In this document: piece after piece, positions 7,993 through 29,541 of the stretch
Layout: each line of letters begins with the position of its first letter
Numbering within the stretch: position 1 is the stretch's first letter
DNA from: a plasmid
DNA length: 38,606 nt
Sequence record: NZ_CP102943.1
Strand: one strand, 5' to 3'
Program-made: the position numbers and the translations under genes
The notes under the pieces: model-generated
What the model was told of the DNA's origin: nothing
The model's input: the letters and a program-made list of their open reading frames with translations, nothing else
Database searches by the model: none

Positions 7993-8003
7993 GTTTCCTT
8001 TAA

Positions 8004-8956: not shown

Positions 8957-9843
8957 GCCGGGGCCTGTTGCTGGCGGTCGCCCTGGCCGTGACCAGTCCG
9001 GTGGCTCAGGCGCTCGATGAGCCCACTTCCTCGCCATTCGACAACCGCATCCAGTACGTCAATTACAACGATGGTGATGTGGTCCTGGTACGGGCTGTCG
9101 CCGGTCTGGGCATGCGGATCGTGCTTCACCCCGGCGAGCGGATCATTGGCGTTGCCAGTGGCTTTTCGCAGGGCTGGGAGTTCAGCGATAAGGGGCACAT
9201 CCTGTACCTGAAACCGAAGTCCATCGGCGGCGGTGACAGCGGCCAGGAGGTAATGACTCCCGAGCCGGGGAAGTGGGACACCAACGTCATGGTGACCACC
9301 GATCAGCGCATGTACGACTTTGACTTGCGCCTGTTGCGTGGCGACAACTCGGGTGCACCGCCCAAGAGCCAGCCGGTGGCCTACCGGGTGCAGTTCCGCT
9401 ATCCCGCCGAGGCCAAGCAGCACGAAGTGGCTCAGGCGTCGAAGGAAATGGCACGTGCGCGGCTCGACACCCCACCCCGTCCCGTCAATTGGGACTACTC
9501 CATGCAGGTGGGCGATGCGTCCGAAGGCATCGCTCCGTCGATGGCGTATGACGACGGCCGGTTCACTTATCTGCGATTCCCCAACAACCGCGAGTTCCCA
9601 ACCGCCTTCCTCGTCGCCGGCGACGGGAGCGAGAGCATTGTGAATAGCCATATCGACCCGCGCATGCCGGACATGCTGGTGCTGCATCGGGTATCGCCGG
9701 CGCTGGTGCTGCGGCTCGGCAGCGCGGTAGTGGGCATCTACAACGACAGCTTTGACGCCGATGGCGTGCCGTCGCGCACGGGCACCACCGTGCCGAACGT
9801 TCGCCGTGTCCTCAAGGCAGCAGGGAGTTCCAACGATGAATAA
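8953..9843 (+). CDS. virB9: VirB9 outer-membrane core-complex protein
   Basis: Signal peptide MSRGLLLAVALAVTSPVAQA; ATGA overlap with virB8. Confidence 0.8.
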   Translation: MSRGLLLAVALAVTSPVAQALDEPTSSPFDNRIQYVNYNDGDVVLVRAVAGLGMRIVLHPGERIIGVASGFSQGWEFSDKGHILYLKPKSIGGGDSGQEVMTPEPGKWDTNVMVTTDQRMYDFDLRLLRGDNSGAPPKSQPVAYRVQFRYPAEAKQHEVAQASKEMARARLDTPPRPVNWDYSMQVGDASEGIAPSMAYDDGRFTYLRFPNNREFPTAFLVAGDGSESIVNSHIDPRMPDMLVLHRVSPALVLRLGSAVVGIYNDSFDADGVPSRTGTTVPNVRRVLKAAGSSNDE

Positions 9844-12054: not shown

Positions 12055-12179
12055 GGTGCCACCGCCGGGCTCTGCCTGCGCGGTCCAAAGCAGTTGGGGA
12101 CGGCTGGCCGCATCGAGCGCGGCCAGCTGTCGCCAAGACAGTTTCAGCGCGCCGATGGCGCCCTACTCGGAGAGAACCC

Positions 12180-14894
<2,715 letters not shown>

Positions 14895-15033: not shown

Positions 15034-15696
15034 ATGAGCCAAGAGGTACAGACCACGCCGGCGTCGGAGAAAGATCGGCCGTACCGCATACCGGAGAGCG
15101 CCATTACGGACGACGTGCGCGCTGTCATCGCGTCGAAGATCGGCGATCAGGCAGTTGCATACCCTGCGAAGGTGGGCGGCAGCTACAAAGGCCCGGTAAT
15201 CCATGCCGATGACAGCTTCATCGTCCAGGCGGTAGGAAAGGACCGCAACAGTGCGGTGGTGCATCAGCGCAGTGATCTGGAAATGCAGGGTGCGCAGCTG
15301 CGACAGCGCGACCGCAATCACGATCTGGTTGACCGCAATATCCAAGTCCACTACCGGGGCACGTCTGCCAAGGCGTACCCGATGAACCCCGCCTCGCCTG
15401 CTCAGTCGAGCGACAAGCCGGCTGATGAGCGCAGTGCGGCGCCGGCGAAGCCGGACCGCATGTATCGGGAATTCGTGGTTGCAACAGCGGCGGAATATGC
15501 CCAAGGCGCCTTCAAGACCGCCAAGCAACGCGAAGCGTTTGTTGGGCACGTTACAGCGATGCTCGACCCGAATCGGCAGATCTCGCCGGGAACACCTGCG
15601 CCCTCCGCAGAAAAGCCGCAAGCCGCCGCCAAGGGTGGTTTGACCCCTGCGCCAGCGCCCGCCAAGCCGCCTACGCCGGCCGAACCCGCGCGCTAA
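15034..15696 (+). CDS. Hypothetical plasmid protein with a Pro/Ala-rich C-terminal tail (possibly KfrB/KlcB-like)
   Basis: GGAG RBS; 220 aa; no motif I can assign with confidence. Confidence 0.5.
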   Translation: MSQEVQTTPASEKDRPYRIPESAITDDVRAVIASKIGDQAVAYPAKVGGSYKGPVIHADDSFIVQAVGKDRNSAVVHQRSDLEMQGAQLRQRDRNHDLVDRNIQVHYRGTSAKAYPMNPASPAQSSDKPADERSAAPAKPDRMYREFVVATAAEYAQGAFKTAKQREAFVGHVTAMLDPNRQISPGTPAPSAEKPQAAAKGGLTPAPAPAKPPTPAEPAR

Positions 15697-15721
15697 CCCC
15701 TCCGCCTCAAGGAACTGAACG

Positions 15722-17374
15722 ATGGACGACAGAAGCAACGACGAATCGCCGGCGACGGCTGCCGGCATCAGCCAAGGCATCATGCGCATTGACGGGCAAG
15801 CGGCCACGTCGATCAAGTACGCCCGCAGCCGTGAGGGGGATCAAGACCAGTTTGAACTGACGTTCCGCATGGGCGACACCCAAGTGGCTAAGGTCAAGCG
15901 ACTGACGCCCGCCGAGCTGGCCGACGCGGTTGGCGCCCGGAATGCGGAGCGTATGAGTGGGCCGGATACGGTGAAAGGGACTCTGAAAGGTGAAACCCTG
16001 GACTTCGTTGACGGGGTAACCCCGACCGAGCGCGAACTGCGGCAAGCGAGCAACACCGTGGAGAAGGGACTCGCGCCCGAGCATGAAACCGGGCTCGTCA
16101 ACACTGACGAGGCCCTGGCGTTCGCGAGGAAGCTGCGCGAACGGGATCGCAAGCTGTGGGCACGCGAACTGAGCCAGGAAACGTCGGACAAGGCCGAAGA
16201 TCATGCCAAGCGCATTGCTGGCGCATCCCAGCCAGCGGGACCGGCACAGGCGGCGGATCTGCCGGCATCGCCCGAAGACCGCAGCACCCAGCTGCCGGAA
16301 CATGAGCAGGCTCGCCGAGCGGAACTCATCGACCGCCTGCACAGTCAGTACCGGGTCGCGGGGAGCCGGTTCTATTACCGCGATCAGCCGGACAAGATCG
16401 CGTTTCGCGATGGGCAGACCCAACTCAAGACGGCAACCAATGATGAGCGTGTCGCGCAAGCGATGATTGCCAGAGCCGATTCGCTGGGCTGGAAAGTCGT
16501 GAACATCAGTGGTCACCCGGACTTCATGCGCCCGGCCTGGATGGAAGCTCGACTCCGAGGGATCGAGACGACCGGCCCATTCAAGCCAACGCCGGCCGAT
16601 CTGGAAGCGCTACGCGCCGCGCAAGAGAAGTTGATGGGCAATCGCGTGGACCGGGTGCCGGAACGCAGCCAGAAGCCCGCACACGCCGATGGGCGCGATA
16701 CGGATACCCACGGCCAGGGACGCGCCGCCAAGGCCGCTCCTGAGCGCGCTGAGGGGCGGGTGGGCACGGTTGGCGATGATGGCAAGGCGCAAGGGGACAA
16801 AGCCAAGCAGATGCCAGCAGACGGACGGCTCAGTGCGCGGGAGGTTGCAGCAGTTGGCGGCGTCGCCGGCAAGGTGCTTGCCCACGGGCCGGCGCCCTAC
16901 AACAACGATCCACAGGAGAAGCCGAGCTACTTCGTAAGGCTTGCGACCAAGGATGGCGAGCGCACGGTCTGGGGCAAGGAACTGCCGGATGCGCTTGCCA
17001 AAGGTGGCGCGACCGCCGGCGACTTCATCAAGCTCAAGCATGGGGGCGACAAGCCAGTTACCGTCGAAGCGAACAAGCGCGACGAACAGGGCAAGGTAGT
17101 CGGTACCCAGACTATCGACGCCGCCCGGAATACCTGGTCGGTGACGAAGCTGGACCGGGCGGCGGCTGTACTCGCGCTGGGTGAGGCATTGGCGGAGAAG
17201 CACCTGAGCCCCGAGTCACAAGAGCGCCTCCGCGATGCAATCGAACGCCGCGTCATTGCATCGCCGGGCAAGGTGCCGGCGGTTCAGGTGTACGACAAAG
17301 CCGCGCCGCCTCGCGAGGCCGGCAGGGAGCGGTCGGGAATGGGGGTTGACCGGGCACCGGAGAGGAATCGCTAA
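15722..17374 (+). CDS. Large conjugation-associated protein of unknown function (possible LPD7-like domain)
   Basis: 550 aa. Central region YRVAGSRFYYRDQPDKIAFRDGQTQLKT...GWKVVNISGHPDFMRPAWMEARLRGIET is reminiscent of domains found with TraC primases and relaxases; the family call is tentative. Confidence 0.45.
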   Translation: MDDRSNDESPATAAGISQGIMRIDGQAATSIKYARSREGDQDQFELTFRMGDTQVAKVKRLTPAELADAVGARNAERMSGPDTVKGTLKGETLDFVDGVTPTERELRQASNTVEKGLAPEHETGLVNTDEALAFARKLRERDRKLWARELSQETSDKAEDHAKRIAGASQPAGPAQAADLPASPEDRSTQLPEHEQARRAELIDRLHSQYRVAGSRFYYRDQPDKIAFRDGQTQLKTATNDERVAQAMIARADSLGWKVVNISGHPDFMRPAWMEARLRGIETTGPFKPTPADLEALRAAQEKLMGNRVDRVPERSQKPAHADGRDTDTHGQGRAAKAAPERAEGRVGTVGDDGKAQGDKAKQMPADGRLSAREVAAVGGVAGKVLAHGPAPYNNDPQEKPSYFVRLATKDGERTVWGKELPDALAKGGATAGDFIKLKHGGDKPVTVEANKRDEQGKVVGTQTIDAARNTWSVTKLDRAAAVLALGEALAEKHLSPESQERLRDAIERRVIASPGKVPAVQVYDKAAPPREAGRERSGMGVDRAPERNR

Positions 17375-17644
17375 ATGACCGTGCACACCAATCACAGTGA
17401 AAGTTCCGGTCACCCGATGAACGCTGGTTGGAAGTGGCTGCGAACAGCGCTCTATGCTGCAAGGCTCTTGGGGATCGGCGCACTTTGGGGCTTCGCAAGT
17501 GTCGGGATTGTCGTTGTTGTAGGGCTGCACCTCTCGGAGCTTCCCACGACGATCACGCTTCCCGCTGGGGCTGTGATCCTCGACGGGCCCCTCGGAGTAA
17601 TCGCGCTGGTGAGCGCTTTGGTGGGTATAGCCCTTAGCAGGTGA
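17375..17644 (+). CDS. Small two-transmembrane-segment membrane protein
   Basis: 89 aa; TAAATG junction with the upstream gene; two hydrophobic helices. Confidence 0.45.
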   Translation: MTVHTNHSESSGHPMNAGWKWLRTALYAARLLGIGALWGFASVGIVVVVGLHLSELPTTITLPAGAVILDGPLGVIALVSALVGIALSR

Positions 17645-17666
17645 CTCGACTACGCCTTTGAGACAA

Positions 17667-17697
17667 GAAGCCCCGCCCTGGCGGGGCTTCTTCGTTT
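17667..17697 (+). terminator. Rho-independent terminator
   Basis: GAAGCCCCGCC-ct-GGCGGGGCTTC stem then TTCGTTTGG. Confidence 0.6.
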
Positions 17698-17710
17698 GGC
17701 GACGGTGGCG

Positions 17711-18148
17711 TGGCTGGCCAGCTGAGATCCGTCGCCAAGACAGATTCAGCGCAAGGGCGTCCTGCCTGCGCGTGCACACGGGGCCCGGTGTGGAAGTCGC
17801 CTGTGCCGTGCATCCGTGGTTGGTGACAGCGCCGATTCCCTGCCGCGCAGATCGGTCGCCAAGACAGATTCAGCGCAAGCGCAAGACAGATTCAGCGCAA
17901 GCGCACCCTCCCCTGCATATGCCCGGCAACTGCCGCTGCGGGAGGCTGTGCGTGGCGTCCGTGGTTGGCGACTGCGGGTTGGCTGGCCGGCTGAGATCCG
18001 TCGCCAAGACAGATTCAGCGCAAGGGCGTCCTGCCTGCGCGTTCACACGGGGCCCGGTGTGGAAGTCGCCTGTGCCGTGCATCCGTAGTTGGTGACAGCG
18101 CCGAGGCCATGCCGCGCAGATCCGTCACCAAGACAGATTCAGCGCAAT
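17711..18148. repeat. Iteron-like array: five copies of GTCGCCAAGACAGATTCAGCGCAAG inside two roughly 150-bp direct repeats
   Basis: Copies at about 17731, 17855, 17881 (overlapping tandem), 18000 and 18124. Pairs are spaced about 124 bp apart. Unit 17711-17880 is nearly identical to 17980-18148. Confidence 0.8.
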
Positions 18149-18168
18149 AGATCGCACATTGTCAATCG

Positions 18169-18187
18169 CCAAGACGTATAATCTTGG
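18169..18187. promoter_or_regulatory. 19-bp operator-like motif copy d (CCAAGACGTATAATCTTGG) with a TATAAT core
   Basis: Palindrome around a -10-like TATAAT; TTGTCA upstream; immediately 5' of the lipoprotein gene. Confidence 0.6.
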
Positions 18188-18216
18188 CTACCACCAACGG
18201 ACACATGAGATTGCCA

Positions 18217-18732
18217 ATGCACCGCATCACTCTTCTTGCCTCCGCTGCACTTCTGCTGGCGTCCTGCGCCTCCCCACCCAAGCCGCCCACGGTGAGCGGC
18301 AAGCACCGCACGGTCGTGAACTCCATCATCGTCTACGCCAGCAATCCGAGGCCCGCACAGATCTCCGAGGGGCCGGCCAGGGTGGCGCCGGCGGGCGTGC
18401 AGCCCGACCGCCGCCTGAGCATCACCTTCCCCTGGAACAAGTGGAAGTTCCAGCCAACGCCGGAACAGGCGGTGCAGCTGCGGCGACTTCTGGCCGGGAA
18501 CATCGACCACGTGAACGTGCGCGGTCGAACCGATGGCCCCGCCGGCGCTGGTGATGAGCGCGTGGCCCGCCGCCGCGCGGCGGCGGCGAAGGACTGGCTG
18601 GTCGGCCAGGGCATCCCCGGCGAACGGATCTTCGTGAGTTACGTGTCCGCCGGTGACTACCAAGCGAGCAATCTCAACGCGGCAGGGCGGGCCTCGAATC
18701 GTCGCGTTGATATCGAAATCATCCACAACTGA
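18217..18732 (+). CDS. OmpA/MotB-family peptidoglycan-binding lipoprotein
   Basis: Signal and lipobox LLLASCAS; C-terminal OmpA-like domain NVRGRTDGPAG...ASNRRVDIEI. Start uncertain: 18184, 18205 or 18217. Confidence 0.7.
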   Translation: MHRITLLASAALLLASCASPPKPPTVSGKHRTVVNSIIVYASNPRPAQISEGPARVAPAGVQPDRRLSITFPWNKWKFQPTPEQAVQLRRLLAGNIDHVNVRGRTDGPAGAGDERVARRRAAAAKDWLVGQGIPGERIFVSYVSAGDYQASNLNAAGRASNRRVDIEIIHN

Positions 18733-18745
18733 CAGGAAGCACGTC

Positions 18746-19285
18746 ATGAAAAGAACTATCGCAACCGTTGCACTGGCCGCTCTGTTCTCCGCTGGCGCTT
18801 CCTCGGCAGGCGCTCAGGAATTCACCGGAGACGTGAAGTACGCATGCGAGGCCATCATGTGTCTGTCCACCGGGAACCGGCCCAGCGAGTGCCAGCCGTC
18901 GCTGGAACGCTATTTCAGCATCAGCGCCAAGAAGGTTTCGGACACGATCAAGAAGCGCAAGAACTTCTTGCAGCTGTGCCCGGCAGCGGATGACAGCGAA
19001 GATATGAAGAAGCTGGTAGACGACCTAGCCAACGGCGCACAGAAATGCGATGCGGCCACGCTGAACCAAGAACTGCGCGTGGGCAGGTTCGGGATCATCA
19101 GCAACCGTCTCCCGGCTCACTGTGCATCTTCGGGTTCGGCGAAGTACGTGGGCATCCCTGGACGCGGTGGCCGTTGGGTCGATGCCGCAGACTACGACCG
19201 AGCGAACCAACAGCACGAACAGCAGCAGAATGCTGCATCGTGGCGCTACGGCAATGCCGGCGAAACCACGGAACAGCTGCGATGA
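18746..19285 (+). CDS. Secreted cysteine-rich protein (possibly TrbM-like periplasmic)
   Basis: AGGAAG RBS; signal peptide MKRTIATVALAALFSAGASSAGAQE; about 8 Cys. Confidence 0.55.
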   Translation: MKRTIATVALAALFSAGASSAGAQEFTGDVKYACEAIMCLSTGNRPSECQPSLERYFSISAKKVSDTIKKRKNFLQLCPAADDSEDMKKLVDDLANGAQKCDAATLNQELRVGRFGIISNRLPAHCASSGSAKYVGIPGRGGRWVDAADYDRANQQHEQQQNAASWRYGNAGETTEQLR

Positions 19286-19507
19286 AGCCGGCCCCTGGAG
19301 ATTGTCACGGTGCCGCCGCTGCACCGCCATCAGGTGGGACACCGGCCACATCCAAGGCGTTTCCGGGGGCCTGCCCGCGCTGTGTAGACATCGTTCTTGA
19401 TGGCATGCTGGACACGATGCTTGATGTCTACACCGCAGGTGCCGCGTCAGCGCACGGTCAAGCTGGCGACGAACGCGGCAAGTAACGTCTGCGGCAGGCA
19501 GGTTAGG

Positions 19508-19534
19508 GAAAAGCGCGGCAGATGCCGCGCTTTT
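19508..19534. terminator. Bidirectional rho-independent terminator between convergent genes
   Basis: AAAAGCGCGGCAgatGCCGCGCTTTTT. Confidence 0.7.
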
Positions 19535-19537: not shown

Positions 19538-20614
19538 TTAGTCGCGGTCCTGGCCCTTGGGTGGGCTTGCCGGCGGCCGTGGGTCGCTGGCTTTGGCGGG
19601 AGTGAGCGATGGCGCTCTCCCCTGCCCTGCCTGCTCAACCTGCTTGAACTGCTCGACCAGGGCCTGATGACGGGTTTGCAATGTTGGCATGCTCTTAACC
19701 ATGCCAACGATGCCCACCGCAAGTTCGCGGGACTCAACGTCACCCTGGGCAACCAACGTGCGTGCGATCTCGGCGTAGACACGCTGCACGCGCTGTCTTT
19801 GTCTTGCGATGTTCCGCTCCGCCGGATTCGCGCGAGGTTTGCCGCTCTTGGCTTCCTGCCGGGCATCCTGGCGCTGCTGTTCGGCACGGTAGGAAGTCCG
19901 CCCGTCCTGCTCCATCTGCTTGATGGCCTGCCGCACCGGACGTTGAACGACTCCCCTCGCCTTACGCGTGGTGGCATTCGCTTCGATGCCCTGGGCGCGT
20001 AGGTGTTCCGCGAACGAATCGCGCCAGTGCGCCAGATCGGCCTTCCGGTGCTGGAGCCTGTACCCGTCAAAGCCCGCTATCTTGACCACCAGGTGCACGT
20101 GCGTGTGGTCTTCGTCGTCATGCTCGGCAAAGGCGTACTGGTGGCCCTGGAAGTTCTCTCGCGCCAGCTCACGGACAGCCGTGGTCACCGATGGCCGGTG
20201 TGTGCCAGCTGGCATCGAGAACACGATATTGAGGGCCTCTCGGCGTTTCTCGCCATGCTCAGGCATACCGATACCGCCATGCTTCCATTCGTCCCGAAGG
20301 GCACGAATGTCCTCGCGTCCTTCGTATATCTCCCCACGCTCATTCTCTACAGCTACCTCGCCATTGCGTGAGATGTAGTCCATATGTGCTTTGACATGCC
20401 GCATGTTGCGGCCCCCGCCCGAGATCTTCACCACGACTTCGGGGGCGCGCTTAACGATCCGCTTGATCCGCTCGATGGCCGCAGGCCCTGTAAGACCTGG
20501 GCGCCCCTGCTGCTTAGGCGCACGCGTCCTGCCACCACGGACGTTCTTGGCCTTTCTACCCTTGAGGGTATGGCCGCTGAGTTCTTCGCCCCACGCGGGC
20601 AGGAATGTAGTCAT
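19538..20614 (-). CDS. Conjugative relaxase, MobA/VirD2-type (likely MOBP-like)
   Basis: N-terminal VVKISGGGRN...AHMDYISRNG carries the catalytic Tyr motif and AEHDDEDHTHVHLVV is the His triad. The ATG at 20614 overlaps the mobC stop (ATGA). Confidence 0.8.
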   Translation of the reverse strand: MTTFLPAWGEELSGHTLKGRKAKNVRGGRTRAPKQQGRPGLTGPAAIERIKRIVKRAPEVVVKISGGGRNMRHVKAHMDYISRNGEVAVENERGEIYEGREDIRALRDEWKHGGIGMPEHGEKRREALNIVFSMPAGTHRPSVTTAVRELARENFQGHQYAFAEHDDEDHTHVHLVVKIAGFDGYRLQHRKADLAHWRDSFAEHLRAQGIEANATTRKARGVVQRPVRQAIKQMEQDGRTSYRAEQQRQDARQEAKSGKPRANPAERNIARQRQRVQRVYAEIARTLVAQGDVESRELAVGIVGMVKSMPTLQTRHQALVEQFKQVEQAGQGRAPSLTPAKASDPRPPASPPKGQDRD

Positions 20615-21162
20615 TCGATTGGCCACCGTTCAAGGCTTGCTCTGGTTACATCGGACACATGCCGGATGTGCTGCTGAATGACCCCATGCAGTGCGTCCAG
20701 CTTCTCAATCTGTAGTGCTGCGCCCCTCCCCTCATTGAGCCGCCGTGCGATCTGATTGATGTTCCGACCGATGGCCATCAGCTGATAGTTGGAATCCCCA
20801 AGTACCTCGACAGCCCGCATCCCAAACTGCGGTTCACGGGTCAACGCCGCACGGATGGCATCAACCATGAAACGGCGCATCGAGCAGCCCTCAAGGTCGG
20901 CTCGCTCGCGTACCCCGGCCTTCTCCGACGTGGTGAGTAGTAGCTCGCACCGCTCCTTACGCTCAGGCTCGGTCGGCTCTCGGCTGCGTTTGATGGCCGC
21001 AACAGGCTCTGCCTTCCCGGCAGCTTCCAAGATCTGCTCGATGGTCGCCTGAATCAAAGCGGATGAGGTCACGCCCTGGCTCTTGCAGTGCGCTTCCCAC
21101 TGCCGCTTCAACTCCGGCCGCAGCCTGACACTCAATGTGGGGTAACGGGCATCAGTTGTCAT
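20611..21162 (-). CDS. mobC: MobC-family relaxosome accessory protein with two RHH motifs
   Basis: LMAIGRNINQIARRLN matches the MobC signature; an N-terminal RHH-like segment; lies upstream of and coupled to the relaxase. Confidence 0.8.
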   Translation of the reverse strand: MTTDARYPTLSVRLRPELKRQWEAHCKSQGVTSSALIQATIEQILEAAGKAEPVAAIKRSREPTEPERKERCELLLTTSEKAGVRERADLEGCSMRRFMVDAIRAALTREPQFGMRAVEVLGDSNYQLMAIGRNINQIARRLNEGRGAALQIEKLDALHGVIQQHIRHVSDVTRASLERWPIE

Positions 21163-21172
21163 GGCAGATCGC

Positions 21173-21270
21173 GAGGCATAACGGGGAGGGGGGGAGCAAA
21201 GTCACATTGTGTGACAATTTACCGGCCAACGGCCTATCCTGCAATAGCCCCCTCCCCCTCCCTATGCCTC
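21173..21270. other. Candidate oriT: imperfect 25-bp inverted repeats flanking GTCACAttgTGTGAC and an RP4-like nick core CCTATCCTGC
   Basis: Left arm GAGGCATAACGGGGAGGGGGGGAGC and right arm GCAATAGCCCCCTCCCCCTCCCTATGCCTC. Core YATCCTG|C at about 21233-21242. Immediately upstream of mobC. Confidence 0.6.
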
Positions 21271-21462
21271 GGTGAATCTGGCATTTGCGGGTCTGGGGAC
21301 AATCCGCGAGTGCGGATTGGGGCTATTCGCGGTCGGCGGCGGCAGCTGGGTTGCCCTTGGGCAACGCTTCTAAGCTGACCCGCTGCCCTGCTCTAGGCGC
21401 GGCTAGTCGTCCGATGGGCGAAGCCCGAGAAGACTCGCCCGCGCTACCGGCCAGGACTAGAA

Positions 21463-21482
21463 CCCTTAGTCATGACTAAGGG
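21463..21482. promoter_or_regulatory. Perfect 20-bp palindrome CCCTTAGTCATGACTAAGGG (candidate KorB/ParB operator or parS)
   Basis: Perfect palindrome with TTAG...CTAA ends like RP4 OB (TTTAGCSGCTAAA). A near-copy TTTGTCATGACTAAGG lies at about 22453-22468 inside parB. Confidence 0.55.
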
Positions 21483-21630
21483 TGCGAAGGGCAAAAGCTG
21501 TGGCCGGTGGTGGGGGGTCGTGACTGGATGCGGGACGCGCCGGAGACTTGATGAAGGCGCTCAACGGTTCACTGTGCGGGTGGAGCGCGCTCCTTCCAGT
21601 CGCTGGTTTCCGCAGCGGCTGTGCCGCTGC

Positions 21631-22092
21631 CTAGTCGGCTGAGTCCTGCGACGTACACGCGAGGGCATCCAACTTGTCGCCGATGGCGATTCCGGTGCGT
21701 GCGAATTCCCCGGCTGGGAGTTCCAACGCATATCTGGCGGGGGCACCGGAGAAGTAATAGACGGGCAGGGCGCTGCCGGGAGCGTCTACGGACATGGCCT
21801 GTATGTCAAAAACCGTGCCGAGGTCATCGATAAAGGCCACGTCCAACGGAGCGGGGGTGTCCTTCATCCAGAAGACGCGCGGCTCGGCGTCGGTCCATAC
21901 GAACAACAGCTTACCCGTCTTGCCGCTCAACCCCTTGGCTTGCTCGGCCACTGTGCGAGCAACAGCCGCCTCCACTACTGCGCCAGTGGAGAAAGAGACT
22001 CGGCAAGTTTCGGAAGCCAGGACGGGTAGAGGGGTCAAACAGAGTAGGGCAGTGATAAACACTGCCCTACGTCGGCCGAGGCCGTGTGTCAC
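21631..22092 (-). CDS. DUF192-family secreted protein
   Basis: FWMKDTPAPLDVAFIDDLG...YALELPAGE matches DUF192. Probable GTG start overlaps the parB stop (GTGA). Signal peptide present. An alternative ATG lies at 22125. Confidence 0.65.
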   Translation of the reverse strand: MTHGLGRRRAVFITALLCLTPLPVLASETCRVSFSTGAVVEAAVARTVAEQAKGLSGKTGKLLFVWTDAEPRVFWMKDTPAPLDVAFIDDLGTVFDIQAMSVDAPGSALPVYYFSGAPARYALELPAGEFARTGIAIGDKLDALACTSQDSAD

Positions 22093-23231
22093 TTGTCCGC
22101 GTCCTTCAACAGATGGATTCGGCATTCGTCGGCGGGGACCTCGGCGTCACCGCCCCCGTCCTCGTACCTGATGCGGATCAGTCCGGCGTCAGTCGGTCGG
22201 CGATTCAACAGAACGGCCGCAACGCGGTTGTTGTGCGAGATCAGCAGAAGCGGCTTCTTCATGCTGTCCGGATCAGAGACCGCTTTCCCACGCGGCCAGC
22301 TGGTCAGCTCGCCGGTGTCCACATCGCTACCGCCGTCAGCACCGCCGGCACTACTCGGCTTGCGGGAGCCCTGGCCGTTGTCGGGGGTCGATCCGTCGCC
22401 CTTGGCTGACTGTCCACCGGGCTCGCCACCGCCGGTACCCCCTTCGTTTCCTTTGTCATGACTAAGGATCTGAGTCGGGTCCGCACTGCCCGCTTTGGGA
22501 TCGACCGTATTGGTAGCGTCGCCGTGTCCCTTGATGGGAGTAACACGGGTCGTTCCCTTCAAGCGGTCGCCGAGTTCCAGCACCGACTTCCGAGTAACGT
22601 CGTCTTCGCCCTCACACCACGCATCCACCTCGGCGGGGAACTTCTCATGCAGAGACCGAAGTTCGTACAAGGTCTTGGGTGAGGTGCAGCGGCCGGAGCG
22701 ATAGATCGTTTCGATGCTGGCCGGCGCATCGACCAACGACAGCAGTTCGGTGATCGTGCTGGCAGGGCGGGCAAGACGGCGAGCTACTTCGGCCTTCTTC
22801 ATGCCGGCATTCTCGATCTTGTCCCTGATGAACATGGCGAGTTCCATCGGCTTGAGGTTGTCTCGTGCCTCATTCTCAATGACCTGATCGAAGTCATCGC
22901 TAGTGTCATCGATGAAGGCCGGGATGGTGGTCATGCCGGCCCGGATCGATCCCCGGTAACGTCGGGCGCCCCAGTTGAGCAACCACTTGCCGGCCTTCTC
23001 CGGGTGAGGCCGCACCGACACCGGCTGGCGCACACCACGGAGACGGATGCTGGCCTCCATTTCGGCCATCTTCTCTTCGGTGAATTCCTTGCGCGGCTGA
23101 TTGGGATCTTCCTCGATCTCGGTAATCGCCAGCTGCAACGGCTTACCGTCGGAAACCGGGACAGGCGGCGCAGCGGGCGCGGTCGGACCGAGCGGGGACG
23201 CCTTCTTGAGATTGGACAGATCAAGAGCCAT
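22089..23231 (-). CDS. korB: KorB/ParB-family partition and global repressor protein
   Basis: Strong similarity to RP4 KorB: EDPNQPRKEF..., GARRYRGS, IPAFIDD...DQVIENEARD, and C-terminal LLNRRP...IRYEDGG. Confidence 0.85.
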   Translation of the reverse strand: MALDLSNLKKASPLGPTAPAAPPVPVSDGKPLQLAITEIEEDPNQPRKEFTEEKMAEMEASIRLRGVRQPVSVRPHPEKAGKWLLNWGARRYRGSIRAGMTTIPAFIDDTSDDFDQVIENEARDNLKPMELAMFIRDKIENAGMKKAEVARRLARPASTITELLSLVDAPASIETIYRSGRCTSPKTLYELRSLHEKFPAEVDAWCEGEDDVTRKSVLELGDRLKGTTRVTPIKGHGDATNTVDPKAGSADPTQILSHDKGNEGGTGGGEPGGQSAKGDGSTPDNGQGSRKPSSAGGADGGSDVDTGELTSWPRGKAVSDPDSMKKPLLLISHNNRVAAVLLNRRPTDAGLIRIRYEDGGGDAEVPADECRIHLLKDADK

Positions 23232-24034
23232 TAGGCCACCTCCATGATGGATGCCAGCTTGTCAAATACCGGCTTCATTTCAAGCCATGCGGTTCGGCCC
23301 GAGGTCTTGGGATGCTTCCACACGGGTACGCCCGCTGCCTGGGCTTCGGCAATGGCAGTGGTCTTCTTGATCGCAGCGAATCCCTTGGCTTCGGGGGCCA
23401 TGGAAATGAGCAATTCAGGGAAGTGGGTCGCGAGGTCGTGGAAGTTGCCCTTCTGGAACGGCGTGGGTTCCACAAGATTGGGCAAAATGCCAATCAGTTT
23501 CAGATTCGGGTTGACGGATGCTTGGATGTTGTGGATGCCGAGAACGGGATGATTCAACAGGTCGCCGATGCCATCGATAGCTTCCTGGTTCAGCTGAATC
23601 GGTGACAAGACGTAATCCGCCGTGCACAGCGCGCTCAACTGGCGAATGTCTGGGTTCGGGTTGGTGTCGATAAGGCACACATCAAACCGATCGCTTACCG
23701 ATGCCAGGAAAGCATGAAAGTAGTTCACGTACTTGTTGTGTTCTGCATCCCCCTGCTTCTCCATCAGGATCAGATCCGGATGACCTTCGATCAAGACGAA
23801 TTCAGCGTCCTCAATGACAGGCGGGGTAGGGGTGGTGAGCAGGTGAATACTATTCACAGCAGAGACGGTCGCCATGCCGCTGAGGCGGATTGCCTTGCTG
23901 CTGTTCCGCTGGTGATCGAAGTCAACCACCAAGACGCGCAGTTTCCGAATGCCAGCGAGGTGATACGCCTGCTGCGAAAGAACTGCTGACTTGCCTACGC
24001 CGCCCTTCTGATTCGCATATACAACAGTCTTCAT
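23231..24034 (-). CDS. incC: ParA/IncC partition ATPase
   Basis: MKTVVYANQKGGVGKS deviant Walker A; 267 aa. Confidence 0.9.
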   Translation of the reverse strand: MKTVVYANQKGGVGKSAVLSQQAYHLAGIRKLRVLVVDFDHQRNSSKAIRLSGMATVSAVNSIHLLTTPTPPVIEDAEFVLIEGHPDLILMEKQGDAEHNKYVNYFHAFLASVSDRFDVCLIDTNPNPDIRQLSALCTADYVLSPIQLNQEAIDGIGDLLNHPVLGIHNIQASVNPNLKLIGILPNLVEPTPFQKGNFHDLATHFPELLISMAPEAKGFAAIKKTTAIAEAQAAGVPVWKHPKTSGRTAWLEMKPVFDKLASIMEVA

Positions 24035-25935: not shown

Positions 25936-26357
25936 TTCGCGCGTGTCACCAATTACGGCAATATTTTTCTGTGTTTTTTCAACGCCCGGCTCCTTATCGG
26001 CCATGGCCGCGTATTCATTCCGGGGTATGGCTCGCGCTCTAGACCAAAGCAGTAGCCAAATCGCGAGAACGCATGTGGCACAAGGGGTCGGAGCCATCGT
26101 TGGTGACGCGAATGGGGTTTCGTTGGCGACGTGAGTCGCCAAAAACGGGCCGATTGCGACGCAAGACAATTTCAGCGTGCTGGGTCAGCGTCGGCGGCGG
26201 CGAAGCCGCTGCGGAAACCAGCGACTGGAAGGAGCGCGCTCCACCCGCGCAGTCAGTAGCGAATTGCCGGTGCGGATCTTCTGCACGCCCTGGTGAACAG
26301 CCCACCCCCACCACCGCCAACCCCGGCCTTTGCTTGGTGCTGGCGCGGCTGCTCTTA

Positions 26358-26601
26358 GGCTGCGGCTTCTTGCTCCGGCATGGCGCGCTGTCCACATATC
26401 CACGATCCGCGAAGGGGCTCTACGTGGCACCCGCAGCAGGGTTGTGGGTATGTGGGCAGTCGCGTGCTACTGCTGTTGCTCTCGTCCTGGGCTGCGGCTT
26501 CTTGCCTTGGCATGGCGCGCTGTCCACATATCCACGATCCGCGAAGGGGCTCTACGTGGCACCCGCAGCAGGATTGTGGGTATGTGGGCAGTCGCGTGCT
26601 T
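26358..26601. repeat. Two tandem copies of a roughly 131-bp repeat, each with an internal inverted repeat and DnaA-box-like sequences
   Basis: Copy 1 at about 26358-26470 and copy 2 at about 26489-26601, over 95% identical. Each unit has TGTCCACATATCCACGATCC and GTTGTGGGTATGTGGGCAGTC. Directly 3' of rep. Confidence 0.8.
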
Positions 26602-28264: not shown

Positions 28265-28312
28265 CTCTGTAATTTGTTGTAGTATGCTACACGCTACAAC
28301 ATACTACAGAGG
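28265..28312. promoter_or_regulatory. Nested palindromes in the kfrA promoter (candidate kfrA autoregulatory operator)
   Basis: CTCTGTA...TACAGAG, TGTAGTATG...CATACTACA and GTTGTAG...CTACAAC, just upstream of the kfrA RBS. Confidence 0.5.
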
Positions 28313-28322
28313 GGTAAGCGCC

Positions 28323-28955
28323 ATGGCTATTTCTCGGGACCAGATCTGGGCGGCAGCTGACGAGCTGGATAGAGCCGGTCACAAGCCCACCCTCAATGCC
28401 GTCCGCAAGGCGATAGGGGGCGGGAGTTTCACCACCATCCAAGAGGGTTTGGCGGAGTGGAAGGCGAAGCGAGCTGCGCAGGCATCGCCGACGCGTGAGC
28501 CGCCGCCGGCAGTGCTGGGCGAGCGCGTGAGCGAGGTGGCGACTGATATTTGGGCGATGGCTATGGATCTGGCATCGGCACGCCTGGGTGCAGACCGCGA
28601 GGCATTGGAGCGGGAACGTGTGGATCTGGATGCTGCACGGCTTGAGGCGGCCGAGGCGGCTGACGAGCTGACCAAGGAGCTGGACGGGGCGCGAGTTCGG
28701 ATCTCCGAGCTTGAGCGTGCCCTTGCTGAGGCACAGGCTGAATCGGCCGGCCGGCTGAAAGAACTAGCCGTGTCGGATGCAAGGTTCACGGACGTGACTG
28801 TGCAGCTGGCCGCAGAGCGCAGTGCGGCCAATGAGGCACGGGCCACTGCTGTTGCGGCGCGTGAGGCGCTTGCGGCCTCTGAGGGCGGCGCGGCCGTACT
28901 CAAGGAGCAGTTGCGCGACGCACTGGCGAAATTGGAGCCGAAGAAGACGCGGTGA
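28323..28955 (+). CDS. kfrA: KfrA-family protein (N-terminal DNA-binding domain plus Ala/Glu-rich coiled coil)
   Basis: MAISRDQIWAAADELDRAGHKPTLNAVRKAIGGGSFTTIQEGLAEWK matches the KfrA_N signature; long coiled-coil tail. Confidence 0.75.
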   Translation: MAISRDQIWAAADELDRAGHKPTLNAVRKAIGGGSFTTIQEGLAEWKAKRAAQASPTREPPPAVLGERVSEVATDIWAMAMDLASARLGADREALERERVDLDAARLEAAEAADELTKELDGARVRISELERALAEAQAESAGRLKELAVSDARFTDVTVQLAAERSAANEARATAVAAREALAASEGGAAVLKEQLRDALAKLEPKKTR

Positions 28956-28974
28956 CCGCTGCGGGAGCTAGCTT

Positions 28975-29541
28975 ATGAAGATTGGATACGCGCGAATCTC
29001 TACCGACGACCAGCGCTTGAACCTACAGCGCGATGCATTGCATGCCGCCGGCTGTGAGCGGGTGTTCACCGACACTGCGAGTGGAGCCCGAGTGGATAGG
29101 CAGGGGCTGGCGGATGCGCTGGACTTCGCCAGGGCTGGCGACGTACTGGTGGTATGGCGGCTGGACCGCCTCGGCCGTTCGTTGAAGGAACTTGTGACCC
29201 TGGTCGAGCGGCTGAAAACTGCCGGCATCGGGTTGGAAAGCCTTATGGAGAAGATCGACACCACAACCGCGTCGGGTGAGTTGATCTTCCACGTGTTCGG
29301 TGCGATCGCTCAGTTTGAACGCCGGTTGATCGTTGAGCGCACCAAGGCTGGATTGTCCGCCGCTCGCGCACGCGGGCGGGCGGGCGGACGGCCACCACTG
29401 TCTCAGGGTACTGTCGAATCGCTGCACGCCTTGGTGCGTGCTGGACGTTCCCCCGCCGAGGTATGTCGGGCGCTCAAGATTGGGCGAACCACGTTCTACA
29501 AGTACAGCCCCGAGTCAACACATAAGGGAAGCGGCGCTTGA
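28975..29541 (+). CDS. Serine recombinase (resolvase/invertase family)
   Basis: MKIGYARISTDDQ...; catalytic Ser; C-terminal HTH. Confidence 0.9.
   Translation: MKIGYARISTDDQRLNLQRDALHAAGCERVFTDTASGARVDRQGLADALDFARAGDVLVVWRLDRLGRSLKELVTLVERLKTAGIGLESLMEKIDTTTASGELIFHVFGAIAQFERRLIVERTKAGLSAARARGRAGGRPPLSQGTVESLHALVRAGRSPAEVCRALKIGRTTFYKYSPESTHKGSGA

What the first reader, a model, noticed from the sequence alone, without database searches (positions are those of the whole stretch)
21173..21270. oriT candidate with an RP4-type nick core next to mobC-relaxase
A 98-bp region immediately 5' of mobC has two 25-30 bp imperfect inverted arms rich in G5-7 runs around a perfect GTCACAnnnTGTGAC palindrome. 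It also carries the decamer CCTATCCTGC, which matches the MOBP nick consensus YATCCTG|Y (RP4: ACCTATCCTG|C). The relaxase N-terminus has the Tyr motif and the HxDxxxHxHxH-like triad (HDDEDHTHVH). MobC-relaxase coupling is seen in ATGA overlaps.
Basis: partly seen in the sequence, partly recalled or inferred. Interest (0 to 1): 0.65.

Follow-up and report, generated by a model that had tools for sequence, protein, structure and literature searches.

The report
Transfer origin of a PromA-like plasmid

Summary
All the described features are present: outer inverted arms at 21172-21194 and 21249-21271, the palindrome GTCACATTGTGTGAC at 21201-21215, CCTATCCTGC at 21233-21242, the ATGA overlap between mobC and the relaxase gene, and HDDEDHTHVH in the relaxase.

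The nick motif alone is not above chance (5 YATCCTGY sites found, 4.6 expected). The support comes from context and conservation:
- The window is a PromA/IncU-like conjugative backbone.
- In all 11 relatives the same core lies about 75-110 nt upstream of mobC, on the opposite strand.
- ATCCTGC is invariant in 13 aligned sequences. These include the IncU (RA3-type) oriT, where two substitutions in the motif abolish mobilisation.
- Against an 80%-identical sister lineage, the longest identical run (80 nt, 21207-21286) covers the core.

Predicted nick: G21241|C21242 on the + strand, so the mobC-relaxase operon enters the recipient last, as in RP4.

The inner palindrome is probably the MobC operator. 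Its sequence changes together with the MobC ribbon-helix-helix β-strand across lineages. The G-rich outer repeat matches RA3 "IR2"; it occurs in only some lineages and is probably stimulatory.

Verdict: new member of a known kind, low interest.

The parts
21172..21194 (.). Outer inverted repeat, left (G-rich) arm. It is the counterpart of the GC-rich IR2 of RA3 and PromA plasmids, and it lies in the mobC 5' leader.
   Evidence: inverted repeats I1, I7, I8. The ssDNA fold pairs it with 21249-21271. Equivalent arms are present in pFBAOT6, pIPO2T, pYK0413-01, the B. pseudomallei TSV202 plasmid and the Variovorax plasmid. In the Morganella plasmid the arms are AT-rich but still complementary.
21201..21215 (.). 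Inner perfect palindrome GTCACA-TTG-TGTGAC, the probable MobC (RHH) operator. It sits immediately downstream of the putative mobC -10 hexamer.
   Evidence: unique in the window. A palindrome at the same place in relatives has a different sequence in each lineage. That sequence changes together with the MobC N-terminal β-strand. The assignment follows the RA3 operator OM and the operators predicted for PromA plasmids (PMC4175270).
21216..21244 (-). Putative sigma-70 promoter of the mobC-relaxase operon, read on the minus strand: -35 TTGCAG (21244->21239), 17-nt spacer, -10 TAAATT (21221->21216). The -35 hexamer overlaps the nick motif.
   Evidence: Read directly. It matches the consensus at only 7 of 12 positions, and the tool scan does not call it. 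The same hexamers and spacing of 16-17 nt occur in relatives. PMC4175270 states that PromA nick sites overlap the predicted -35 of the mobC promoters.
21220..21248 (+). Conserved nick core TACCGGCCAACGGCCTATCCTG|CAATAGC, the presumed relaxase recognition sequence. The predicted nick lies between G21241 and C21242.
   Evidence: It is at the centre of the only stretch with DNA-level matches to PLSDB plasmids. ATCCTGC is invariant in 13 sequences. The block is 100% identical to the 80%-identical sister lineage L095. It aligns to the CGAATCCTGC that was deleted or mutated in RA3.
21249..21271 (.). Outer inverted repeat, right (C-rich) arm. [quoted passage not shown]
   Evidence: It is 100% conserved against L095. 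G21271 is C in 10 of the 11 near-identical copies whose oriT could be compared (L020 keeps G), which removes the terminal pair.
21272..21357 (+). Conserved extension on the leading side of the nick. It includes the hairpin CAATCCGC-GAGT-GCGGATTG (21300-21319) and GGGGCTATT (21319-21327), which is complementary to AATAGCCCC (21243-21251). Its function is unknown; it may be a structured 5' leader of the transferred strand.
   Evidence: 96.5% identical to L095, against 78-87% in the flanking coding DNA. Inverted repeats I9 and I12. The ssDNA fold of 21242-21400 gives -40.9 kcal/mol, z = -3.7.
20611..21162 (-). mobC: an RHH accessory relaxosome protein and presumed autorepressor, 183 aa.
   Evidence: Pfam MobC PF05713 scores above its cut-off; NikA-like PF21983 falls just below. 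It is 29% identical to IncU MobC and 49-52% to PromA MobC, with the motif AIGRNxNQxAxxxN invariant.
19538..20614 (-). Relaxase, 358 aa from the ATG that overlaps the mobC stop codon. It belongs to the MOBP superfamily, in the PromA TraS/TraR and IncU NIC lineage.
   Evidence: Pfam Relaxase PF03432, E = 1.5e-11. NCBIfam MobP1, E = 1.3e-35, below the cut-off. Identity is 44-49% to PromA relaxases, 39% to IncU and 23% to the RP4 TraI N-terminal region, with S133, H165, D167, H172 and H174 invariant. ATGA overlap.
21462..21483 (.). 22-bp perfect palindrome ACCCTTAGTCATGACTAAGGGT, a candidate KorB/ParB site (parS). It corresponds to the TTCGTCATGACGAA-type palindrome that directly follows oriT in PromA relatives and to the RA3 KorB site IR-SnaBI.
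   Evidence: I2. A second copy with one mismatch lies at 22452-22465; 0.23 copies are expected by chance. It is conserved in L095 amid diverged flanks. Counterparts in relatives. The KorB assignment is an inference.

Best explanation
[quoted passage not shown] The plasmid is related to the PromA group and to IncU plasmid RA3.

Proposed mechanism:
1. The relaxase (19538-20614, minus strand) recognises the conserved core TACCGGCCAACGGCCTATCCTG|CAAT on the + strand. It cuts between G21241 and C21242 and becomes joined through its tyrosine (HMDYISR motif) to the 5' C.
2. The + strand is then transferred 5'->3'. The partition and control side (DUF192, korB, incC) enters first. The mobC-relaxase operon and the type IV secretion genes enter last, the same polarity as in RP4.
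3. MobC, a ribbon-helix-helix dimer, binds the palindrome at 21201-21215. The palindrome abuts the -10 hexamer of the mobC promoter, and the -35 hexamer overlaps the nick motif. MobC would therefore repress its own operon and also stimulate nicking, as shown for RA3.
4. The G/C-rich outer inverted repeat brackets the promoter, operator and nick. It probably acts as a stimulatory structural element, for example by cruciform extrusion or by pairing of the ends of the transferred strand.

What is shown here: the sequence anatomy, synteny, conservation, and covariation between the MobC β-strand and the palindrome. What is inferred by homology: the cleavage position, MobC binding, promoter use, and the role of the outer repeat.
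For: Gene context:
- The backbone carries a topoisomerase, virB3-virB11, a VirD4-type coupling protein, KfrB, an LPD7 protein, OmpA, TrbM, the relaxase, MobC, DUF192, KorB, IncC, KfrA, a resolvase and ParDE.
- The order trbM / relaxase / mobC / intergenic / (DUF192) / korB / incC is the same as in pIPO2T, pYK0413-01, pXAC47, pMRAD02 and the B. pseudomallei plasmid. pFBAOT6 also places oriT between the partition genes and mobC.

Conservation at long range:
- No near DNA match exists in PLSDB, and the relaxase is no more than 51% identical to any PLSDB hit.
- Even so, window 21188-21258 matches PromA, Xanthomonas, Methylobacterium and Aminobacter plasmids at 77-91%.
- All 8 PLSDB relatives have one YATCCTGY 72-104 nt from the annotated mobC start, on the opposite strand.
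- Two more distant genomic relatives have it about 100 nt upstream. The IncU plasmid pFBAOT6 carries the variant AATCCTGC at the same place.
- ATCCTGC is invariant across the 13-sequence alignment.

Conservation at short range:
- Against L095 (80% identical over 1.39 kb), the core and right arm are 100% identical.
- The longest identical run is 21207-21286, while the coding flanks are 78-87% identical.

Experimental anchor in RA3:
- A 417-bp mobCp-oriT fragment is mobilised at about 100%. Two substitutions in the nick motif abolish transfer (<1e-7). MobC represses mobCp through its operator OM, and loss of mobC lowers transfer 1000-fold (PMC4175270).
- The RA3 ΔoriT deletion (9747-9756) is CGAATCCTGC when read on the near-identical pFBAOT6 backbone, whose mobC and nic coordinates coincide with RA3's. 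That decamer aligns to the window's CCTATCCTGC.

Relaxase and polarity:
- The MOBP nick consensus (C/T)ATCCTG(C/T) is taken from PMC3772185.
- RP4-type geometry was verified on pBS228: traJ-traI lie to the left on the minus strand and CCTATCCTGC is on the + strand.
- The relaxase has Pfam Relaxase and the invariant H-x-D-x4-H-x-H and Ser motifs shared with RP4 TraI.

MobC operator:
- The palindrome is unique in the window.
- Three MobC β-strand classes map one-to-one onto three palindrome classes (6/6, 6/6 and 3/3), while the rest of the MobC N-terminus stays nearly identical.

Outer repeat:
- The ssDNA fold gives z = -4.4 and -5.0.
- Counterparts with different sequences occur in RA3/pFBAOT6, pIPO2T and others, and in an AT-rich form in the Morganella plasmid.

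The plasmid is current: copies 99.1-99.9% identical occur on ~38-kb contigs, and its relaxase and MobC are indexed in 24 and 32 blocks of the assembly collection.
Against: - There is no experimental evidence for this plasmid. The nick position is inferred only by alignment.
- The 8-mer motif occurs at chance frequency in the window.
- The putative promoter matches the consensus at only 7 of 12 positions and is not called by the scan. No clear Shine-Dalgarno sequence precedes the mobC ATG.
- The palindrome is 25 nt from the nick, whereas the RP4 inverted repeat is 8 nt away.
- In RA3, MobC binding to its operator is largely dispensable for mobilisation (2-3-fold effect). The palindrome may therefore matter for regulation more than for nicking.
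- The outer repeat is significant in only about 7-10 of 39 non-redundant MobC-linked oriTs and is absent from pXAC47 and pMRAD02.
- Changes in the left arm in L095 and L020 are not compensated in the right arm. The outer repeat cannot be essential.
- The metagenome set was collected with the core motif itself, so it says nothing independent about conservation of the core.
Confidence: 0.88

Rival explanations
1. The region is only the promoter and operator of the mobC-relaxase operon. Its conservation reflects transcriptional control, and the real nick site lies elsewhere.
For: The -35 and -10-like hexamers overlap the conserved block, and the palindrome abuts the -10. RA3 MobC is a strong autorepressor acting at this position.
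Against: In RA3/pFBAOT6 the homologous ATCCTGC lies upstream of the promoter hexamers, not inside them. It is still conserved, and it is essential for mobilisation. The invariant positions are ATCCTGC, not a sigma-70 consensus; the -35 is TTGCAG or ATGCAG. No other YATCCTGY site in the window lies outside an ORF assigned as a gene. The two functions are not exclusive, and the best explanation includes the promoter.
Confidence: 0.05
2. oriT lies at the other large inverted repeat, 19379-19436, downstream of the relaxase gene. This is the alternative the first reader named.
For: There is a 14-nt, 93% complementary inverted repeat with a 30-nt spacer. A one-mismatch decamer CCTAACCTGC lies nearby at 19498-19507 on the minus strand.
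Against: No ATCCTG occurs there, and the mismatch falls inside the core hexamer. About 2.2 such one-mismatch hits are expected by chance. The site lies between the convergent 3' ends of trbM and the relaxase gene, next to a perfect terminator-like hairpin AAAAGCGCGGCA-GA-TGCCGCGCTTTT at 19509-19534. In several relatives this interval holds a gene instead. No DNA-level conservation with other plasmids was detected outside 21188-21258 in the query used.
Confidence: 0.02
3. The inverted repeats are chiefly a centromere or global-regulator site (KorB, KorA or parS) at the end of the partition operon. The nick-like motif is incidental.
For: In RA3, parS (the KorB site) directly adjoins oriT. The region sits at the border between the partition and transfer modules.
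Against: Neither the inner palindrome nor the outer arms recur elsewhere in the window, as global operators usually do. A separate palindrome, TTAGTCATGACTAA, does recur (21466 and 22452) and matches the TTCGTCATGACGAA-type sites of relatives, so it is the better KorB candidate. The inner palindrome tracks the MobC β-strand, which points to MobC rather than KorB.
Confidence: 0.03

Closest known systems
oriT/mobCp region of IncU plasmid RA3 (and pFBAOT6), with the mobC-nic operon. Sources: Godziszewska et al. 2014, PMC4175270; Lewicka et al. 2021, PMC8124265.
   Same: - Bicistronic, overlapping mobC-relaxase operon, with oriT in its promoter region at the border with the korB/incC partition module.
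- ATCCTGC nick motif on the strand opposite to mobC.
- G-rich and C-rich outer inverted repeat (IR2) enclosing the promoter, operator and nick.
- RHH MobC with the AIGRNxNQxAxxxN motif.
- A KorB-type palindrome on the leading side.
   Different: - MobC is only 29% identical and the relaxase 39% identical.
- The RA3 motif is GAATCCTGC, and the nick precedes the promoter by 50 nt. Here it is CTATCCTGC and overlaps the -35 hexamer.
- The RA3 operator (AGCGTCTGCCGCCGCT) lies between -35 and -10. Here the palindrome lies just downstream of -10.
- The RA3 KorB site abuts the outer arm. Here the candidate site is about 190 nt away.
Putative oriT of PromA plasmids (pIPO2, pSB102, pTer331, pMOL98, pMRAD02 and the LC6239xx captured plasmids). 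It was predicted in silico: PMC4175270 Fig. 7; PMC6232296.
   Same: - Same gene order.
- Same core TACCGGC-N5-7-GCCTATCCTGCAAT, 72-104 nt from the annotated mobC start.
- The nick overlaps the predicted -35 hexamer.
- A lineage-specific palindrome lies at the -10 hexamer.
- A G-rich outer repeat is present in several members.
   Different: - The proteins are only 44-53% identical, and there is no near DNA match, so this is a separate lineage.
- The outer arms are longer (23 nt, with a CGAGGCATA/TATGCCTCG clamp).
- The palindrome type differs (GTCACA/TGTGAC).
- There is about 190 nt of extra conserved DNA between oriT and the KorB-type palindrome.
- No Rep protein was identified.
RP4/RK2 (IncP-1α) oriT, with traJ-traI and traK.
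   Same: - Identical decamer CCTATCCTGC.
- Same strand and polarity relative to the accessory and relaxase genes.
- An inverted repeat lies 5' of the nick on the nicked strand.
- The relaxase shares motifs II and III.
   Different: - The relaxase is 23% identical and half the length.
- The accessory protein is MobC/NikA-like rather than TraJ.
- There is no divergent traK leader operon.
- The RP4 inverted repeat ends 8 nt from the nick and there is no bracketing outer repeat. Here the palindrome ends 25 nt away.
IncX (R6K-type) MobP1 relaxase with DDP1 accessory protein, as NCBIfam NF041450 and NF041451.
   Same: These are the best NCBIfam matches for the relaxase (E = 1.3e-35) and for MobC (E = 6.4e-6).
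   Different: Both scores are far below the curated cut-offs (123 against 200 bits; 26 against 150 bits). The proteins are relatives, not members.

Membership tests
MOBP-type oriT (RP4-like nick region) | Core hexanucleotide ATCCTG within (C/T)ATCCTG(C/T) (PMC3772185) | tested here: met
   TATCCTGC at 21235-21242 on the + strand. ATCCTGC is invariant in 13 aligned homologous sites.
MOBP-type oriT (RP4-like nick region) | Inverted repeat 5' of the nick on the nicked strand, close to the nick (8 nt in RP4) | tested here: inconclusive
   A palindrome at 21201-21215 lies 5' of the nick but ends 25 nt away. Only a 4-bp GGCC-AAC-GGCC mini-hairpin adjoins the motif.
MOBP-type oriT (RP4-like nick region) | Nick strand oriented so that the adjacent accessory-relaxase operon is transferred last | tested here: met
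   In the window, mobC and the relaxase gene lie to the left on the minus strand and the motif is on the + strand. pBS228 has the same layout: traJ-traI to the left on the minus strand, motif on the + strand.
MOBP-type oriT (RP4-like nick region) | Site- and strand-specific cleavage by the cognate relaxase, and cis-acting mobilisation | not testable with these tools
   This needs mobilisation assays and nick mapping. It has been shown only for the homologous RA3 site.
IncU/PromA mobC-nic oriT module | Overlapping mobC-relaxase operon at the border of the korB/incC partition module, with oriT in its upstream region | tested here: met
   ATGA overlap. KorB and IncC lie immediately beyond DUF192. 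Relatives have the same order.
IncU/PromA mobC-nic oriT module | MobC with an N-terminal RHH and the LxxxGxNxNQxAxxLN mobilisation motif | tested here: met
   LMAIGRNINQIARRLN is present, and AIGRNxNQxAxxxN is invariant in 6 sequences. Pfam MobC scores above its cut-off.
IncU/PromA mobC-nic oriT module | GC-rich inverted repeat (IR2) bracketing the promoter, operator and nick | tested here: met
   Arms at 21172-21194 and 21249-21271. Counterparts are present in pFBAOT6 and several PromA plasmids. The literature says it is present in only some members.
IncU/PromA mobC-nic oriT module | KorB-binding palindrome (parS/OB) directly adjoining oriT | tested here: inconclusive
   The candidate palindrome at 21462-21483 lies about 190 nt beyond the outer arm rather than abutting it. 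KorB binding is untested.
PromA plasmid group (membership in the strict sense) | Backbone genes closely similar to pIPO2, pSB102 or pMRAD02, and a PromA replicon | tested here: not met
   There is no megablast match. The relaxase is no more than 51% identical and MobC 49-52%. The candidate Rep ORF has no plasmid match. The organisation is PromA-like, but the lineage is separate.
MOBP relaxase superfamily (RP4 TraI-like) | Relaxase domain with motif I Tyr, motif II Ser and motif III HxDx4HxH | tested here: met
   PF03432, E = 1.5e-11. S133, H165, D167, H172 and H174 are invariant with RP4 TraI. The Tyr motif HMDYISRNG is conserved among the PromA and IncU relaxases, but its alignment to TraI Y22 is ambiguous.
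NCBIfam MobP1 relaxase subfamily (IncX type) | Score at or above the curated cut-off of 200 bits | tested here: not met
   123.3 bits.

The most novel reading that the evidence does not exclude
The outer inverted repeat may be more than decoration. Its two arms sit about 50 nt before and 7 nt after the nick. After cleavage they are therefore at the 3' and 5' ends of the transferred strand.

Two roles are possible:
- In the donor, supercoil-driven cruciform extrusion could expose the nick (which overlaps the -35 hexamer) in a single-stranded loop. Transcription of mobC-relaxase and nicking would then be mutually exclusive states.
- In the recipient, pairing of the two arms could hold the strand ends together for relaxase-mediated re-joining.

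Sequence-divergent but still complementary arms in the IncU, PromA and Morganella-type lineages would then reflect selection on structure.
Probability: 0.15. Interest if true: 0.45.

Novelty: new member of a known kind. Interest (0 to 1): 0.2.

Why it matters
- It gives a confident oriT and a predicted nick position for an undescribed PromA/IncU-like plasmid lineage. The lineage recurs almost unchanged on about 38-kb contigs in many metagenome assemblies. The annotation is useful for plasmid typing, for oriT databases, and for building mobilisable vectors.
- The comparison adds two modest points to what was known for this oriT class. First, the palindrome next to the nick core changes together with the MobC β-strand. 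That supports its role as the MobC operator and suggests discrete specificity classes. Second, the outer repeat is kept as a structure with different sequences, but only in some lineages.
- Neither point changes the picture of how MOBP origins work.

Tried and rejected
- A megablast of 20600-21500 against PLSDB found nothing. Only the 'distant' mode revealed the conserved core.
- The relaxase scan of one genome per species gave only two 43%-identical relatives.
- The promoter and terminator scan called neither the putative mobC promoter nor the 19509-19534 hairpin. Its only promoter-like hit (+ strand, 21211-21240) has no gene to serve.
- The Rfam gathering scan of the whole window found nothing.
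- PDB sequence searches with the relaxase and with MobC gave no meaningful hit.
- A tblastn with the candidate Rep ORF 35104-36204 found nothing, so that ORF may be spurious.
- A literature search for 'YATCCTG' returned only unrelated papers.
- RA3 itself (DQ401103) is not in the plasmid collection. I used pFBAOT6 as its stand-in because the mobC and nic coordinates coincide.
- The metagenome pattern scan also picked up chance matches inside coding sequences, for example L055 and L110. I therefore restricted the analysis to sites with a MobC homologue 30-200 nt away.
- The gapless inverted-repeat score underestimates the window's bulged arms (p = 0.03).
- I considered a G-quadruplex in the G-rich arm and dropped it, because there are only two G-tracts.
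- I did not run structure prediction of the relaxase, because family membership was already clear.
Full report
**1. What is in the sequence**

The + strand of 21160-21290 reads as follows:

CATGGCAGAT CGCGAGGCATAACGGGGAGGGGGGGAGCAAA GTCACATTGTGTGAC AATT TACCGGCCAACGGCCTATCCTGCAATAG CCCCCTCCCCCTCCCTATGCCTCG GTGAATC...

- CAT at 21160-21162 is the mobC start codon on the minus strand.
- The repeat finder gives outer arms at 21172-21194 and 21249-21271. They are 23 nt long, 78% complementary without gaps, and 54 nt apart.
- The perfect palindrome GTCACA-TTG-TGTGAC is at 21201-21215 and is unique in the window.
- CCTATCCTGC is at 21233-21242.
- The mobC stop and the relaxase start overlap as ATGA at 20614-20611.
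- The relaxase contains HMDYISRNG and HDDEDHTHVH.

**2. Is it more than chance?**

The motif alone is not. YATCCTGY occurs 5 times in the window against 4.56 expected. This copy is the only one outside an ORF assigned as a gene; the other four lie in the virB4, virB9 and YadA-like genes and in an unannotated 168-aa ORF. As single-stranded DNA the 116-nt region folds at -27.4 kcal/mol against -16.1 ± 2.6 for shuffles (z = -4.4). The complementary strand gives z = -5.0. In the predicted fold the outer arms pair, the inner palindrome forms a hairpin, and TATCCTG|CAAT is left unpaired.

**3. Context**

Pfam scans show a complete conjugative backbone:

| Gene or protein | Coordinates (strand) |
|---|---|
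| Topoisomerase | 10-2391 (+) |
| VirB3, VirB4, VirB5-like, VirB6, VirB8, VirB9, VirB10, VirB11 | 2885-12054 (+) |
| VirD4-type coupling protein | 12042-14894 (+) |
| KfrB-domain protein, LPD7 protein, OmpA, TrbM | 15034-19285 (+) |
| Relaxase | 19538-20614 (-) |
| MobC | 20611-21162 (-) |
| DUF192, KorB, IncC | 21631-24034 (-) |
| KfrA, resolvase | 28284-29541 (+) |
| YadA-like protein | 29942-32866 (-) |
| ParD, ParE | 32924-33633 (+) |
| SLT transglycosylase | 37814-38605 (+) |

- Megablast finds no related plasmid in PLSDB.
- By tblastn the relaxase is 46-51% identical to TraS/TraR of PromA plasmids and to relaxases of PromA-like plasmids from Pseudomonas, Burkholderia, Variovorax and Agrobacterium.
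- The gene order trbM / relaxase / mobC / intergenic / (DUF192) / korB / incC is the same in these relatives. The IncU plasmid pFBAOT6 also places oriT between the partition genes and mobC.
- The same plasmid, 99.1-99.9% identical, is found on contigs of about 38 kb. Its relaxase and MobC are indexed in 24 and 32 blocks of the assembly collection.

**4. Conservation**

- With the sensitive blastn mode, the only part of 21100-21500 that matches any PLSDB plasmid is 21188-21258. It matches PromA, Xanthomonas, Methylobacterium (pMRAD02) and Aminobacter plasmids at 77-91%.
- In all eight PLSDB relatives fetched, exactly one YATCCTGY lies 72-104 nt from the annotated mobC start, on the strand opposite to mobC. 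It sits inside the block TACCGGC-N5-7-GCCTATCCTGCA(A/T)T.
- Few or no other copies occur in those 5-kb loci.
- Two more distant relatives found by protein homology alone have GTGCAGC...GCTGCAC-N23-TATCCTG|C about 100 nt upstream of mobC. They come from a Burkholderia gladioli MAG and from Ralstonia syzygii, and their relaxases are 43% identical to the window's.
- In a 13-sequence alignment that includes the IncU plasmid pFBAOT6, ATCCTGC is invariant.
- A metagenomic sister lineage, L095, is 80% identical over 1.39 kb. Against it the nick core (21216-21248) and the right arm are 100% identical.
- The longest identical run in the whole L095 comparison is 80 nt (21207-21286). The mobC, DUF192 and korB coding flanks are 78-87% identical. 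The non-coding core is thus under stronger constraint than the genes around it.

**5. Link to experiment**

- RA3 (IncU) has the same mobC-nic operon with oriT in its promoter region.
- A 417-bp fragment is mobilised at about one transconjugant per donor.
- Two substitutions in the nick motif abolish transfer (<1e-7).
- MobC is an RHH autorepressor that binds an imperfect palindrome in mobCp.
- Loss of mobC lowers transfer 1000-fold.
- Deletions that remove upstream repeats, including one arm of the GC-rich IR2, lower mobilisation 5-20-fold.

These results are from PMC4175270. The same paper aligns RA3 with five PromA plasmids. It notes that IR2 is conserved in RA3 and in three of the five PromA plasmids, and that the in-silico PromA nick sites overlap the predicted -35 of the mobC promoters.

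The RA3 ΔoriT mutant removes 9747-9756 (PMC8124265). pFBAOT6 has the same mobC and nic coordinates as RA3, and in pFBAOT6 those bases read CGAATCCTGC on the nick strand. That decamer aligns column for column with the window's CCTATCCTGC.

The MOBP consensus (C/T)ATCCTG(C/T) and the RP4 nick region are documented in PMC3772185.

**6. Polarity**

My recalled RP4 oriT sequence matched IncP-1α plasmids at 100%. In pBS228, with CCTATCCTGC on the + strand, traJ-traI lie to the left on the minus strand and traK to the right. The window has the same geometry, with mobC-relaxase to the left on the minus strand. If cleavage is at G21241|C21242, the + strand leaves 5'->3' rightwards. The DUF192/korB/incC side then enters first, and mobC, the relaxase gene and the T4SS genes enter last.

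**7. The proteins**

- The relaxase hits Pfam Relaxase (E = 1.5e-11) and NCBIfam MobP1 below its cut-off.
- It is 49% identical to pIPO2 TraR, 44% to the pMRAD02 relaxase, 39% to IncU NIC and 23% to the RP4 TraI N-terminal region.
- Ser133 and H165-x-D167-x4-H172-x-H174 are invariant in that alignment.
- The Tyr motif is conserved among the PromA and IncU proteins. Its automatic alignment to TraI Tyr22 is off by a few residues.
- MobC hits Pfam MobC above its cut-off and NikA-like just below. It keeps the invariant AIGRNxNQxAxxxN motif.
- Neither protein has a relative of solved structure detectable by sequence.

**8. The inner palindrome**

Read on the mobC strand, the sequence is TTGCAG-17 nt-TAAATT followed at once by GTCACACAATGTGAC. 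The hexamers are weak (7 of 12), and the scan tool does not report them. The same arrangement with 16-17-nt spacing recurs in relatives.

A pattern scan of metagenome contigs gave 120 loci. From these, the PLSDB loci and the two genomic loci, 39 non-redundant sites have a MobC homologue starting 30-200 nt away. When the MobC N-termini are sorted, the β-strand and the palindrome switch together:

| MobC β-strand | Palindrome | Agreement |
|---|---|---|
| NPYLN(L/V)YLG | GTACGCGCGTAC-type | 6/6 |
| SR(A/S)(M/L)N(I/L)HLG | TGTGCGCACA | 6/6 |
| AQYLD(L/V)YLG | AAACTACCGGGGTAGTTT | 3/3 |
| KPLLSGRVD | GTGCAGC...GCTGCAC | 2/2 |

In the first three classes the following helix (KKPGAALKEAIEQQLEK) is nearly unchanged. 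The window's β-strand class (TLSVRLR; LSVRLG in L040 and L030) goes with a TGAC(A/G)-(A/T)TTTACC proximal half-site. This is the pattern expected if the RHH β-strand reads the palindrome, so I assign the palindrome as the MobC operator. Shared ancestry is not fully controlled for, which leaves this as supporting evidence rather than proof.

**9. The outer repeat**

- Comparable arms flank the nick in pFBAOT6 (ACATGGGGGGG / CCCCCCCATGT), pIPO2T, pYK0413-01, and the B. pseudomallei and Variovorax plasmids.
- In the Morganella plasmid the arms have a quite different, AT-rich sequence: CGATAAAGATGATGA / TCATCATCTATCG.
- In the 39-site set, 10 reach p <= 0.05 against composition-matched shuffles (about 2 expected). 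Three of those are caused by duplicated KorB-type palindromes. pXAC47 and pMRAD02 lack the repeat.
- Changes in the left arm in L095 and L020 are not compensated.

Together with the 5-20-fold effect in RA3, this points to a stimulatory structural element rather than an essential one. Whether it acts as a cruciform in the donor or by pairing the ends of the transferred strand cannot be decided here.

**10. Rivals**

- Promoter only. In RA3 the conserved, essential motif lies outside the promoter hexamers, which does not fit this reading.
- The inverted repeat at 19379-19436. It has no ATCCTG and lies between convergent gene ends, next to a terminator-like hairpin at 19509-19534.
- A centromere or global operator. 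The oriT repeats do not recur elsewhere in the window, whereas a separate palindrome, TTAGTCATGACTAA, does.

**11. Verdict**

The finding is real and the oriT interpretation is supported. It is the PromA/IncU (RA3-type) form of the MOBP origin, on a plasmid lineage that is not in PLSDB. It is a new member of a known kind, of low general interest but useful for annotation. What remains inferred: the exact cleavage position, MobC binding, promoter use, and the role of the outer repeat.

Noticed in passing
window 21462-21483 and 22452-22465: A 22-bp perfect palindrome ACCCTTAGTCATGACTAAGGGT, with a second one-mismatch copy of its TTAGTCATGACTAA core inside korB (0.23 copies expected by chance). 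PromA relatives carry TTCGTCATGACGAA- or TTGGTCATGACCAA-type palindromes directly after oriT, and RA3 has its KorB site there. This is a likely KorB/parS site, displaced here by about 190 nt.
   Followed up: partly
window 21571-21631 and 26193-26253: A 61-nt inverted repeat, 93% complementary, brackets the DUF192-korB-incC central control block (4.56 kb apart). The copy at 21571-21631 is also well conserved in the 80%-identical sister contig L095 (93.6%). Function unknown.
   Followed up: no
window 21242-21400: The first ~160 nt of the predicted transferred strand fold strongly as ssDNA (-40.9 kcal/mol, z = -3.7). AATAGCCCC, just 3' of the nick, pairs with GGGGCTATT at 21319-21327. The stretch 21272-21357 is 96.5% conserved against L095. 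It could be a leading-strand priming or ssDNA-promoter element.
   Followed up: partly
L001-L011 and metagenome loci L026-L142: The MobC RHH β-strand sequence and the palindrome next to the nick core switch together in discrete classes (6/6, 6/6, 3/3, 2/2), while the rest of the MobC N-terminus stays similar. This suggests interchangeable operator specificities within PromA-like plasmids.
   Followed up: partly
L057, L078, L111, L139 (metagenome contigs): Some relatives carry two nick cores in tandem (ACCGGCG-N-GCCTATCCTGCA), 78-215 nt apart. In L078, L111 and L139 the cores are accompanied by copies of a CTTGTTCATGAACAAG palindrome. These look like duplicated oriT units.
   Followed up: no
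L034, L038, L050, L051, L066, L067, L071, L074, L079, L094, L124, L143: A second family of sites shares the core (CATGGCGCCCAAAACCGGCGGTAGCCTATCCTGCAAT...GTAAACGTTTTGCGC). No homologue of this window's MobC or relaxase was detected nearby. It is probably the oriT of a different MOBP element type, not identified.
   Followed up: no
L017 (Logan SRR31815904 contig), corresponding to window 21119/21120: One otherwise identical contig breaks inside mobC at window position 21119 and continues into AT-rich unrelated DNA. This is either an insertion into mobC or an assembly chimera.
   Followed up: no
window 19379-19436 and 19509-19534: Between the convergent trbM and relaxase 3' ends lie a 14-nt inverted repeat with a 30-nt spacer and a perfect hairpin AAAAGCGCGGCA-GA-TGCCGCGCTTTT. 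The hairpin looks like a bidirectional terminator. The scan tool misses it, probably because its loop is 2 nt and the scan requires 3-8.
   Followed up: partly
window 26353-26600; 17696-17878 and 17965-18147: Two copies of a 116-nt unit (95% identical, 132 nt apart) lie in an unannotated ORF region. A 183-nt stretch that contigs of the near-identical plasmid match at two places in the window (about 93% each) suggests a direct repeat 269 nt apart, between the LPD7 and OmpA genes. Neither was examined.
   Followed up: no
(RP4 oriT query against PLSDB): The 245-nt RP4 oriT query also hit 22 Xylella and 12 Xanthomonas plasmids at 80-90% identity. I did not determine which part of the query matches.
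   Followed up: no
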